Shown one piece after another: positions 1-1,302 of a stretch of 1,304 nucleotides of DNA (position 1 is the first letter of the stretch; each line of letters opens with the position of its first letter). The notes beneath the pieces were generated by a model. That model was given only the letters and a program-made list of their open reading frames with translations. It had not been told where the DNA came from and did not search any database. The stretch lies in the NCBI GenBank assembly GCA_000004985.1, contig GG739450.1; one strand, written 5' to 3'. The position numbers and the translations under genes are program-made. This stretch comes from Naegleria gruberi (taxonomy: Eukaryota).

Positions 1-966
1 CAACAAGAAATATTTTCAGATGATGTTTGTTTTGAAATAATTTCCATGCTCGATGATTCGTGGTTTATTTTGAATAATTGTTCCTTGATTTCAAAACAAT
101 TCTTTAATGTGATCAAGGAACGTTCAAAACTTGTTATTCAATTTAAACAAAAATTTACAGAGAAACGAGTTGAATTATTCATGAAAAGTCAGTTTAGGAA
201 TAGAATTATTAATCTTAAAGTTTTTAGATATTTGCTTGACTCTTTTGAAAAACTCAAATTCATTAGTGATATGAAACGATTAACGTCACTTGATATTTCT
301 TTCAATCAAATTGGTGTACAAGGGGTCAAATTCATTAGTGGAATGAAACAATTAACATCACTTGATATTTCTTTCAATCAAGCTAGTGATGAAGGTGCTA
401 AATACATAAGTGAAATGAAACAATTAACATCACTTGGTATATCTAAGAATCTAATTGGTGATGAAGGAGCTAAATATATTAGTGAAATGAAACAATTAAC
501 ATCACTTAATTTATATTACAATGAAATTTGCGATGAAGGAGCTAAATATATTAGTGAAATGGAGCAATTGACATCACTTGATATTTCTTCTAATCTAATT
601 GATGTAGAGGGAGTCAAATTCATTAAGGAAATGAAACAATTAACATCACTTAATATATATTACAATGGAATTGGTGTAGAAGGAGCCAAATACATAAGCG
701 AAATGAAACAACTAACATCACTTAATATTACTAACAATGAAATTGGTGATGAAGGAGCTAAATACATTAGTGAAATGAAACAATTAATATCACTTATTAT
801 ATCTAGGAATCAAATTGGTGATGAAGGTGCTAAGTACATTTGTGAAATGGAGCAATTGACATCACTTAACATTTCTGGCAATGAAATTGGTGATGAAGGA
901 GCCAAATACATTAGTGATATGAAACAACTAACATCACTTGATATTTCTTTTCAATCAAGTTGGTGA
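1..966 (+). CDS. F-box-like / leucine-rich-repeat protein (RI/GALA-like 24-aa LRRs). Probably 5'-partial, and the 3' end is truncated by a frameshift as sequenced.
   Basis: Frame 1 has no stop from base 1 to the TGA at 964-966. The first in-window ATG is at 46, as in the ORF track. Translated, residues 1-40 read 'QQEIFSDDVCFEIISMLDDSWFILNNCSLISKQFFNVI'. By eye this fits an F-box-like consensus of the form LPxEILxxIFSxLDxxDLLxxxLVCKxW. From about residue 75 onward there are ten 24-aa repeats, 'MKQLTSLDISFNQIGDEGAKYISE', with the LxxLxLxxNxIGxxGAxxL spacing typical of RI-type and GALA-type LRRs. Codon usage is consistently AT-rich at third positions. The domain call comes from visual motif matching, not from an HMM search. 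Confidence 0.78.
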   Translation, partial: QQEIFSDDVCFEIISMLDDSWFILNNCSLISKQFFNVIKERSKLVIQFKQKFTEKRVELFMKSQFRNRIINLKVFRYLLDSFEKLKFISDMKRLTSLDISFNQIGVQGVKFISGMKQLTSLDISFNQASDEGAKYISEMKQLTSLGISKNLIGDEGAKYISEMKQLTSLNLYYNEICDEGAKYISEMEQLTSLDISSNLIDVEGVKFIKEMKQLTSLNIYYNGIGVEGAKYISEMKQLTSLNITNNEIGDEGAKYISEMKQLISLIISRNQIGDEGAKYICEMEQLTSLNISGNEIGDEGAKYISDMKQLTSLDISFQSSW

Positions 967-1012
967 TGAAGGTGCTAAATACATTAGTGAAATGACACCA
1001 CTAGGAAAATAA
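253..1012 (+). repeat. Tandem 72-bp direct repeat array of about 10.3 units, in frame, encoding the 24-aa LRR units.
   Basis: Units begin with 'atgaaacaattaacatcactt' at 271, 343, 415, 487, 559, 631, 703, 775, 847 and 919. A degenerate final partial unit starts at 992. Spacing is exactly 72 nt, except that the last full unit is 73 nt because of an extra T. Many units share exact blocks, for example 'ggtgatgaaggagctaaatacattagtgaaatgaaacaattaacatcactt'. Confidence 0.95.
953..1012 (+). pseudogene. Frameshifted C-terminal remnant of the LRR gene. It lies in the +1 frame relative to 46..966 and encodes 'NQVGDEGAKYISEMTPLGK*'.
   Basis: After the T4 run at 948-951 (T3 in every other unit), the sequence 'caagttggtgatgaaggtgctaaatacattagtgaaatgaca' continues the repeat almost exactly, but out of frame with the annotated CDS. 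Read in the shifted frame it gives another canonical half-unit and ends at TAA 1010-1012, exactly where the DNA repeat degenerates. Confidence 0.6.
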
Positions 1013-1062: not shown

Positions 1063-1302
1063 GTGGTAAATATCTGCTCCTATTCTTCATCCAAAGGTGT
1101 GCACCATTTTCGTCGATGTGAAATGGATGTTAAAGTCGTAAATGGTGACACAAGACCCAAAATTACAAATGGATATTACGAATGCTTGAAACGTTTGACG
1201 AATTCTTTCAGCATCAAGTATTCGAAAGGAAGTCAACTCTATTCAAAATTAAATACAACATTCAAAAAGAAATTGCCAATCCCAAAGTACACTACAATAT
1301 GA
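1063..1302 (+). CDS. Hypothetical small basic protein. It is 79 aa from GTG 1063, or 59 aa from the in-frame ATG at 1123-1125. Its reality is doubtful.
   Basis: The ORF track gives this ORF. Position 1063 is GTG, not ATG. I see no convincing Shine-Dalgarno motif upstream of either start, and I recognise no motif in the translation. The composition (about 35% GC) differs from the upstream gene. The region could equally be non-coding or a UTR. Confidence 0.22.
   Translation: MVNICSYSSSKGVHHFRRCEMDVKVVNGDTRPKITNGYYECLKRLTNSFSIKYSKGSQLYSKLNTTFKKKLPIPKYTTI

What the first reader, a model, noticed from the sequence alone, without database searches (positions are those of the whole stretch)
253..1012. 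Near-identical 72-bp in-frame tandem repeats imply recent expansion or concerted evolution, and probably copy-number instability
Ten consecutive 72-bp units share long exact nucleotide blocks, with identity well above what is needed to conserve a 24-aa LRR at the protein level. That degree of DNA-level identity in a tandem coding array suggests recent unit duplication or gene conversion. Such arrays are prone to replication slippage and unequal recombination, so the protein may differ in repeat number between strains or cells. They are also a classic assembly-collapse hazard, so the true copy number may differ from the 10 seen here.
Basis: partly seen in the sequence, partly recalled or inferred. 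Interest (0 to 1): 0.5.

Follow-up and report, generated by a model that had tools for sequence, protein, structure and literature searches.

The report
Naegleria LRR gene, diverged 72-bp repeats
The window holds most of an unannotated Naegleria-type leucine-rich-repeat gene whose ten 72-bp repeats are real but only about 80% alike, and no more alike than repeats in a different gene, so it is an ordinary member of a lineage-specific gene family, not a freshly expanded or visibly unstable array.

Summary
The array is real: period 72, 10.3 copies, positions 256-995, each unit coding one 24-residue LRR. It is not near-identical. Pairwise nucleotide identity is 71-90% (mean 80%), the longest exact repeat is 30 nt, and no 31-mer recurs. 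It is not fully in frame either. An extra T (T4 run, 948-951) in unit 10 shifts the frame to a TGA at 964-966.

DNA identity (0.80) exceeds what protein conservation plus Naegleria-like codon usage predicts (0.665 ± 0.01). But this excess is shared by the subfamily and is not specific to this array:
- Same-codon use is 0.796 within the window and 0.796 against the units of a separate gene from another sample (L001).
- dS is 0.47 among units and 0.47 for the non-repeat N-terminal domain between the two genes.
- L001 units interleave with window units in a tree.
- There is no adjacency gradient and no excess of long identical tracts.

Distant Naegleria-type arrays are saturated (same-codon 0.52-0.55). 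The subfamily is therefore younger than LRR arrays in general, but this array is not recently expanded. Paralogs carry about 3-10 units, so copy number changes over evolutionary time.

The protein is a GALA-type 24-residue LRR solenoid, possibly behind an F-box. Interest is low.

The parts
1..252 (+). Coding sequence upstream of the array. It enters the window already open. It codes a conserved N-terminal domain (QQEIFSDDVCFEIISMLDDSWFILNNCSLISKQFFNVIKERSKL...) followed by two degenerate LRR-like turns.
   Evidence: The frame is open from base 1. The first 44 residues are identical to N. gruberi paralog P0001, and there are 30 invariant columns across 8 family members. Pfam F-box-like reaches only E = 0.25. 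AlphaFold2 predicts three short helices with pLDDT below 50, then strands at residues 44-48 and 69-75. No 72-nt window outside the array reaches 62% identity to the unit consensus.
253..900 (+). Units 1-9 of the 72-bp tandem array, in frame. Each codes one 24-residue GALA-type LRR.
   Evidence: TRF gives period 72 and 80% matches. Pairwise identity is 71-90%. Pfam LRR_6 scores 2.3e-56. The predicted solenoid has pLDDT above 90.
901..973 (+). Unit 10, 73 nt long because of a one-base insertion.
   Evidence: Removing one T restores AKYISDMKQLTSLDISFNQVGDEG. The corrected unit is 90% identical to unit 2.
948..951 (+). A TTTT run where the other DISFNQ units have TTT. It causes a +1 frameshift.
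   Evidence: Direct comparison of units 1 and 2 (TCTTTCAATCAA) with unit 10 (TCTTTTCAATCAA).
964..966 (+). TGA stop of the frame that is actually open. It is created by reading GGTGATGAA out of frame.
   Evidence: the ORF listing gives an ORF at 46-966 ending ...DISFQSSW.
974..1012 (+). Partial eleventh unit (AKYISEMTPLGK) with a TAA at 1010-1012. It is readable only in the shifted frame and is probably the original end of the gene.
   Evidence: Translation. TRF extends the array to 995. Repeat similarity ends here.

Best explanation
The window carries most of an unannotated member of a Naegleria gruberi-clade gene subfamily. The gene has a conserved N-terminal domain, possibly an F-box, followed by a C-terminal array of 24-residue GALA-type leucine-rich repeats.

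How the protein is built. Each 72-bp unit codes one turn of a curved solenoid: a beta strand (LTSLxIxxNxI) followed by a helix (GDEGAKYISEM). Scaffold positions are under purifying selection. The exposed strand positions 14, 16, 17 and 19 vary freely and probably form the binding surface for a partner protein. If the N-terminal domain is an F-box, that partner would be presented to an SCF ubiquitin ligase. This last step is inferred.

Why the units look alike at DNA level. All units of the subfamily, in this gene and in its paralogs, descend from one ancestral 72-bp unit that was amplified recently enough for synonymous sites to remain unsaturated (dS about 0.47). The units of this array are about as old as the split between paralogous genes, and they belong to at least two unit lineages shared with another gene. 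The array is therefore a moderately old product of unit duplication and loss during a lineage-specific family expansion. It is neither a recently expanded nor an actively homogenised array.

A one-base insertion in unit 10 now closes the frame 15 codons before the probable original stop.
For: Source and family:
- Best protein hits are N. gruberi predicted proteins. P0001 is 74% identical and its N-terminal 44 residues are identical.
- The window's 306-aa ORF (46-966) is not on record, and no database protein is more than 74% identical to the frame-corrected protein.

Age and origin of the units:
- The array exists and its identity values are as given above.
- Pooled Nei-Gojobori estimates: within the array dS 0.47 and dN 0.19. 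Window units against L001 units dS 0.50. Non-repeat N-terminal domain, window against L001, dS 0.47.
- Same-codon fraction is 0.796 within the window, 0.796 between the genes and 0.825 in the N-terminal domain. The simulated null is 0.46-0.54.
- Distant arrays L002 and L003 give 0.52-0.55.
- The DNA within-minus-between difference is 0.0135 (p = 0.14), and L001 units interleave with window units in a UPGMA tree.
- There is no adjacency gradient and no excess of long identical tracts.
- Paralog arrays hold about 3-10 units.

Protein structure and class:
- pN is 0.44 at codons 14, 16, 17 and 19, against 0.094 in the 18 scaffold codons.
- The LRR solenoid model has pLDDT above 90.
- The best solved relative is the GALA protein RipG4: profile E = 2.5e-38, Foldseek E = 2.4e-18.
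- FBXL17 and FBXL2 align over the whole model with TM 0.73-0.78.
Against: - Only one close relative (L001, four units) was available as DNA. The between-gene comparison therefore rests on a small sample, and DNA of the N. gruberi paralogs could not be fetched.
- At protein level, units are slightly more alike within genes than between them: 0.672 against 0.648 overall (p = 0.005), and 0.694 against 0.661 for the window. Six of the ten window units have their nearest neighbour in the same gene. Some within-array duplication or conversion has therefore happened.
- A few unit pairs are close at synonymous sites (units 2/10 pS 0.10; units 2/8 and 3/8 pS 0.14). Each unit has only about 16 synonymous sites, so these values are noisy.
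- The F-box assignment is not established: Pfam E = 0.25 and pLDDT below 50.
- The choice of hypervariable codons was partly post hoc.
Confidence: 0.7

Rival explanations
1. The array expanded recently, or is being homogenised by gene conversion among its own units. It is therefore unstable in copy number and may be mis-assembled.
For: - DNA identity and same-codon use are well above the protein-only expectation.
- Protein-level similarity shows a slight within-gene excess, and 6 of 10 nearest neighbours fall within the gene.
- The closest unit pairs (2/10 and 3/8) are 90% identical.
- Paralog P0006 shows clear gene-specific unit signatures: 0.785 against 0.669, with 4 of 4 nearest neighbours in the same gene. 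The process therefore does occur in this family.
Against: - Units are only 80% alike on average. The longest exact tract is 30 nt and no 31-mer is repeated.
- Within-array and between-gene values are equal for same-codon use, identity and dS.
- There is no decline of identity with distance and no excess tract length.
- Units from another gene nest among the window's units.
Confidence: 0.12
2. Family-wide concerted evolution. Ectopic gene conversion among the units of all paralogs keeps every unit in the subfamily at a steady state of about 80% identity. In that case the shared codons reflect continuing exchange, not a single past burst.
For: - Within-array and between-gene similarity are identical.
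- The unit relationships are star-like and interleaved.
- Apart from the first unit, there is no clear positional orthology between arrays.
Against: - The non-repeat N-terminal domain shows the same dS (0.47) and the same same-codon fraction (0.825). Ordinary divergence since duplication explains this more simply.
- No long identical tracts were seen.
- L001 comes from a different sample and probably a different strain or species. Exchange with it is not possible, yet its units are just as similar.
Confidence: 0.13
3. The similarity at synonymous sites is imposed by selection on the nucleotide sequence itself (codon preference, mRNA structure or a DNA-level signal) and not by common descent.
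For: The genome is AT-rich (window GC 30%) and codon usage is biased, which raises chance identity.
Against: - The simulation already includes codon bias and still gives only 0.665.
- Codon choice is position-specific. Ser is AGT at position 5, TCA at 12 and TCT at 16. Leu is TTA, TTG or CTA at position 10 but always CTT at 13.
- Tyr is mostly TAC and Phe always TTC, although the reference genes prefer TAT (0.77).
- Distant arrays in related genomes with similar GC content are saturated.
Confidence: 0.03

Closest known systems
GALA-LRR proteins (Ralstonia RipG/GALA type III effectors; Legionella LegL1), assigned to the CC-LRR subfamily by Kajava et al. 2008 (PMC2244805)
   Same: - The unit is 24 residues long.
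- In the paper's numbering, the motif has Ile5-Gly6-Asp7, Gly9 and Ala10, with apolar residues at positions 5, 10, 13, 19, 22 and 24.
- It is the best solved-structure match by sequence profile (9j7j_A, E = 2.5e-38; 4xa9_A, E = 1.4e-24) and by fold (9j7j, 30% identity; 4xa9, rmsd 1.4-1.6 Å).
- GALA proteins combine an F-box with the LRRs, and their variable surface positions are thought to bind substrates.
   Different: - This is a eukaryotic (Naegleria-type) host gene, not a secreted bacterial effector.
- Position 16 is an invariant Met, whereas GALA-LRRs have no conserved apolar residue there.
- The F-box is not demonstrated here.
- Sequence identity to GALA proteins is only 27-30%.
Naegleria gruberi predicted proteins P0001, P0002, P0003, P0006, P0007, P0009 and P0031 (unnamed LRR_RI-type paralogs) and the metagenomic relative P0010
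   Same: - The same N-terminal domain and the same EMKQLTSL unit. Identity is 59-73% in the family alignment and 53-74% locally to the query in the search.
- P0010 uses the same position-specific codons.
- Arrays run to the C-terminus without a conserved cap.
   Different: - The window gene has the longest array seen, at 10.5 units against about 3-8.
- It is not in the protein database.
- It carries a frameshift in its last full unit.
FBXL-type F-box/LRR substrate adaptors of SCF ubiquitin ligases (FBXL17, FBXL2)
   Same: They have the same overall architecture of a short helical N-terminal domain followed by an LRR arc. They give the highest query-normalised TM-scores, 0.73-0.78, over 360-389 aligned columns.
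   Different: - Their CC-LRR units are 26 residues long, against 24 here.
- Sequence identity is 18-19%.
- The N-terminal part of the model has low confidence, and Pfam F-box-like is below threshold.
Repeat arrays under concerted evolution that generate recognition diversity (for example the fungal HET/NWD WD40 repeats, PMC1805685, seen by title and abstract only)
   Same: Both are tandem coding repeats with conserved scaffold positions and hypervariable surface positions. Here pN is 0.44 at four strand positions, against pS of 0.35.
   Different: To my recollection, and not checked here, those arrays have units above 90% identical within and between genes, together with demonstrated repeat shuffling. 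Here units are 80% identical, with no detectable conversion tracts.

Membership tests
Leucine-rich repeat proteins (Pfam LRR_6 / RI-like clan) | Repeated LxxLxLxxNxL core motif, scoring above the curated Pfam threshold | tested here: met
   LRR_6 scores 183.9 bits against a cut-off of 23.4, with 7 matched stretches. LRR_8 and LRR_4 are also above their cut-offs. L10, L13, N18 and G24 are invariant in all ten units, and position 15 is Ile in nine units and Leu in one.
Leucine-rich repeat proteins (Pfam LRR_6 / RI-like clan) | Solenoid fold with one strand and one helix per repeat | tested here: met
   The AlphaFold2 model has pLDDT 90-98 over residues 90-330, with alternating strand and helix at a 24-residue period. 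Foldseek matches LRR structures with probability 1.00. This is a prediction, not a solved structure.
GALA-LRR (CC-LRR subfamily, Kajava et al. 2008) | 24-residue unit with Ile at position 5, Gly/Asp at 6-7, Gly at 9 and Ala at 10 | tested here: met
   The unit consensus N-x-I-G-D-E-G-A-K-Y-I maps to I5 G6 D7 G9 A10. Apolar residues fall at positions 5, 10, 13, 19, 22 and 24 (columns; definition).
GALA-LRR (CC-LRR subfamily, Kajava et al. 2008) | No conserved apolar residue at position 16, which distinguishes GALA-LRR from GL-LRR | tested here: not met
   Position 16 corresponds to Met7 of the unit as cut here. It is invariant in all ten units, which resembles the conserved Leu16 of GL-LRRs. 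The repeat is therefore GALA-like and not a textbook GALA-LRR.
GALA-LRR (CC-LRR subfamily, Kajava et al. 2008) | Closest solved relatives are GALA proteins | tested here: met
   9j7j_A (RipG4) is the top hit by profile (E = 2.5e-38) and by fold (E = 2.4e-18, 30% identity). 4xa9 (LegL1) aligns with rmsd 1.4-1.6 Å.
F-box/LRR SCF substrate adaptors | An N-terminal F-box domain able to bind Skp1 | tested here: inconclusive
   Pfam F-box-like gives E = 0.25 and 11.6 bits against a cut-off of 24.3. Three short helices are predicted, but with pLDDT below 50. FBXL17 and FBXL2 give TM 0.73-0.78 over the whole model. Skp1 binding cannot be tested with these tools.
Recently expanded or concertedly evolving, unstable coding tandem arrays | Units near-identical at DNA level, with long exact tracts | tested here: not met
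   Mean identity is 79.8% (range 71-90%). The longest exact repeat is 30 nt and no 31-mer is repeated.
Recently expanded or concertedly evolving, unstable coding tandem arrays | Units of one array more alike to each other than to units of paralogous arrays | tested here: inconclusive
   At DNA level the difference is 0.0135 (p = 0.14), same-codon use is 0.796 against 0.796, and units interleave in the tree. At protein level across 10 genes the difference is small but significant: 0.672 against 0.648 (p = 0.005), and 0.694 against 0.661 for the window.
Recently expanded or concertedly evolving, unstable coding tandem arrays | Synonymous divergence among units much lower than between paralogous genes | tested here: not met
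   dS is 0.47 among units, 0.47 for the N-terminal domain between genes, and 0.50 for units between genes.
Recently expanded or concertedly evolving, unstable coding tandem arrays | Copy-number polymorphism between strains or cells | not testable with these tools
   No orthologous locus from another strain could be found. The ORF is not on record, and DNA motif scans of the metagenome, viral and prokaryotic collections gave 0 hits. Only variation between paralogs (about 3-10 units) was seen.

The most novel reading that the evidence does not exclude
The N. gruberi-clade EMKQLTSL subfamily might be a fast-diversifying intracellular recognition repertoire. On this reading it would consist of F-box-linked GALA-type LRR adaptors whose arrays are rebuilt by unit gain, loss and frameshift truncation. 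Their concave-face positions (14, 16, 17, 19) would be under diversifying selection, for example to track proteins of intracellular bacteria or giant viruses of amoebae. It would also be the kind of eukaryotic gene pool from which bacterial GALA/LegL-type effectors were acquired.
Probability: 0.1. Interest if true: 0.55.

Novelty: new member of a known kind. Interest (0 to 1): 0.15.

Why it matters
Mostly as a calibration case. A striking tandem coding repeat with shared codons is not by itself evidence of recent expansion or instability. The deciding control is whether the units are closer to each other than to the units of paralogs, and here they are not.

Biologically, the window adds one unannotated and possibly frameshift-truncated member to a lineage-specific Naegleria family of GALA-type LRR proteins. 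That family has variable repeat number and hypervariable putative binding positions. This is of modest interest for anyone studying SCF adaptors, or the eukaryotic relatives of bacterial GALA/LegL effectors, in amoebae.

Tried and rejected
- Exact look-ups of the window ORF and of N. gruberi paralogs P0001, P0006 and P0002 for their DNA returned nothing on record. The closest paralogs could therefore be compared only as proteins.
- A metagenome scan with a family alignment gave 236 pattern matches, none confirmed.
- Exact scans for the degenerate motif GAAATGAARCAAYTRACATCACTT in the metagenome, viral and prokaryotic genome collections gave 0 hits each.
- A second protein search with the N-terminal 132 residues scored only 64 candidates and returned 3 known paralogs, so it added nothing.
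- A protein search with the 82-aa frame downstream of the gene, which contains the 79-aa ORF at 1063-1302, found no homologue. Pfam found nothing in the ORF either. I treat the ORF as probably non-coding.
- Higher-order periodicity was rejected. TRF reports only period 72, and identity does not peak at any unit distance.
- A column-permutation test for gene-conversion tracts gave an observed maximum of 30 against a null mean of 30.3, p = 0.5. This null is crude.
- The minus strand has no long ORF across the array or the 3' region.

Full report
**What is in the window**

The window is AT-rich (GC 30%). A reading frame is open from base 1 on the + strand. The first 252 bases code a non-repetitive domain. 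From 253 onward the sequence is a head-to-tail array of 72-bp units.

Tandem Repeats Finder reports a single array at 256-995: period 72, 10.3 copies, 80% matches, score 862. Cutting at 253+72i gives ten units, each translating to a 24-residue leucine-rich repeat with consensus AKYISEMKQLTSLDISYNQIGDEG. Pfam LRR_6 scores 183.9 bits against a cut-off of 23.4. The repeat is real and far beyond chance.

- The units are not near-identical. Pairwise nucleotide identity is 71-90% (mean 79.8%), and amino-acid identity is 50-83% (mean 69%).
- The exact blocks are short. The longest exact direct repeat is 30 nt, and no 31-mer occurs twice in the window.
- The array is not in frame throughout. Unit 10 has TTTT at 948-951 where the other DISFNQ units have TTT. 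The open frame therefore reads ...DISFQSSW and stops at TGA 964-966.
- Removing one T restores a normal unit 10. A partial eleventh unit, AKYISEMTPLGK, then runs to a TAA at 1010-1012.
- I cannot tell whether the extra T is a real mutation or an error.
- Paralogs P0001 (...DIGDNPNW) and P0002 (...LVMKEPSS) also end in what look like out-of-frame readings of a unit.

**Source and family**

The frame-corrected protein finds 759 proteins. The best hits are Naegleria gruberi predicted proteins. P0001 is 74% identical and its N-terminal 44 residues are identical to the window's. No database protein is more than 74% identical to the frame-corrected protein, and the 306-aa ORF (46-966) is not on record. 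The window is therefore an unannotated paralog or comes from an unsequenced close relative.

Eight family members share the N-terminal domain and the EMKQLTSL unit, but they carry about 3 to 10 units.

**Is DNA identity higher than the protein needs?**

Yes.
- I took codon usage from ten non-LRR genes on two Naegleria-like contigs and back-translated the ten unit peptides 1000 times. Expected mean pairwise identity is 0.665 (sd 0.010, maximum 0.70), against 0.80 observed.
- Where two units have the same amino acid, they use the same codon in 79.6% of cases, against 46% expected.
- Leaving out Ser, or Ser, Leu and Arg, changes little: 0.78-0.79 observed against 0.49-0.54 expected.
- Codon choice is position-specific. 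Ser is AGT at position 5, TCA at 12 and TCT at 16. Leu is always CTT at position 13. This points to descent from one ancestral unit, not to codon bias.

**Is that excess specific to this array?**

No. The one close relative available as DNA is L001, a 4.1-kb ENA metagenome contig coding P0010, with four units.

| Comparison | Nucleotide identity | Same-codon fraction | dS |
|---|---|---|---|
| Among window units | 0.80 | 0.796 | 0.47 (dN 0.19) |
| Window units against L001 units | 0.78 | 0.796 | 0.50 |
| Non-repeat N-terminal domain, window against L001 | 0.81 | 0.825 | 0.47 |

Further points:
- A permutation of gene labels over the 14 units gives a within-minus-between difference of 0.0135, p = 0.14.
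- L001 units nest among window units in a UPGMA tree. L001 unit 2 is the nearest neighbour of window units 4, 7 and 9.
- Two unit subtypes span both genes. The VKF...GVEG type holds W1, W2, W6, W10, L1 and L4. The AKY...GDEG type holds W3, W4, W7, W8, W9, L2 and L3.
- Identity does not fall with distance along the array: 0.80 at one unit apart and 0.85 at nine.
- The longest identical tract is no longer than under column shuffling, p = 0.5.

In contrast, two distant Naegleria-type LRR arrays (L003, coding P0071, which one source names N. fowleri, and L002) have units 49-50% identical, with same-codon fractions of 0.52-0.55. That is the saturated level.

**Reading of these results**

The subfamily as a whole is younger than LRR arrays in general. 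All its units trace to one 72-bp ancestor that was amplified while the gene family was also expanding. The units of this particular array are about as old as the split between paralogous genes. This does not fit a recent expansion or within-array homogenisation.

There is a weak residual gene-specific signal at protein level:
- Within-gene identity is 0.672 against 0.648 between genes (p = 0.005).
- For the window it is 0.694 against 0.661, and 6 of 10 nearest neighbours lie within the gene.
- The signal is strong only in paralog P0006, at 0.785 against 0.669.

Some within-array duplication or exchange therefore does occur in the family. Family-wide gene conversion cannot be fully excluded. 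It is the less economical explanation, because the non-repeat domain shows the same divergence and L001 comes from a different sample.

**Consequences for stability and assembly**

With 80% identity and exact tracts of at most 30 nt, slippage and unequal recombination should be inefficient. This is inference from general knowledge of homology requirements and was not tested here. With no repeated 31-mer, collapse within the array is unlikely for assemblers using k of 31 or more. Confusion with paralogs elsewhere in the genome could not be checked.

**What the protein is**

- AlphaFold2 on the family alignment gives mean pLDDT 84 and pTM 0.82. It shows a regular strand-helix solenoid at pLDDT 90-98 over the array, and a low-confidence helical N-terminus.
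- The best solved relative is the LRR domain of the Ralstonia GALA protein RipG4, both by profile (9j7j_A, E = 2.5e-38) and by fold (E = 2.4e-18, 30% identity). Legionella LegL1 follows, at rmsd 1.4-1.6 Å.
- The unit fits the GALA-LRR pattern of Kajava et al. 2008: 24 residues, with Ile5, Gly6, Asp7, Gly9 and Ala10. The exception is an invariant Met at position 16, which resembles GL-LRRs.
- FBXL17 and FBXL2 give the best whole-model TM-scores, 0.73-0.78. However, Pfam F-box-like is far below threshold (E = 0.25). An SCF-adaptor role is a reasonable inference, not a result.
- Non-synonymous differences concentrate at strand positions 14, 16, 17 and 19, where pN is 0.44, above the overall pS of 0.35. 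The 18 scaffold codons have pN 0.094. This is typical of LRR binding surfaces. The choice of positions was partly post hoc.

**Verdict**

The feature is an ordinary, unannotated member of a known kind of gene family.

Noticed in passing
window 948-966; proteins P0001 and P0002: The frame is closed by a one-base T insertion in the last full unit (...DISFQSSW-TGA). Paralog P0001 ends ...DIGDNPNW and P0002 ends ...LVMKEPSS, which look like out-of-frame readings of the same NQIGDEG segment. Arrays in this family may often be shortened by frameshifts near their 3' ends.
   Followed up: partly
window 253-1012, frames 2 and 3: Every unit carries stop codons in both alternative frames, for example TGA inside GGTGATGAA and inside GAAATGAAA. 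Any frameshift therefore ends translation within about one unit, and neither strand has a long alternative ORF across the array.
   Followed up: partly
window units 1, 2, 6, 10 against 3, 4, 7, 8, 9; L001 2482-2769: Two unit subtypes (VKF...GVEG/DISFNQ-like and AKY...GDEG-like) occur in both the window gene and the L001 gene. Unit lineages therefore predate the split of the two genes.
   Followed up: partly
window codons 14, 16, 17 and 19 of each unit: The exposed beta-strand positions are hypervariable: pN 0.44, against pS 0.35 overall and pN 0.094 in the scaffold. This suggests a diversifying binding surface. The positions were chosen partly post hoc.
   Followed up: partly
protein P0006 (N. 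gruberi paralog): Its four units share a gene-specific GVEGSKFI signature. Within-gene identity is 0.785 against 0.669 to other genes, and all four nearest neighbours are in the same gene. This paralog, unlike the window gene, does look recently duplicated or homogenised.
   Followed up: no
first unit of each paralog (window 253-324; listing): The first unit starts xKFI in 8 of 9 family members, while later units mix Y, F, S and other residues at that position. The 5' edge of the array appears positionally conserved, with turnover happening further downstream.
   Followed up: partly
window 1063-1302 (+): A 79-aa ORF lies downstream of the gene. It has no Pfam match and no homologue among 5.8 billion proteins, so it is probably non-coding. 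No LRR remnants occur beyond 1012.
   Followed up: yes
window units, codons 3 and 17: Tyr is mostly TAC (7 of 11 Tyr codons over the two positions; 5 of 7 at codon 3) and Phe always TTC (6 of 6), although the non-LRR reference genes prefer TAT (0.77). The codons appear to be inherited from the ancestral unit against the genomic bias.
   Followed up: no
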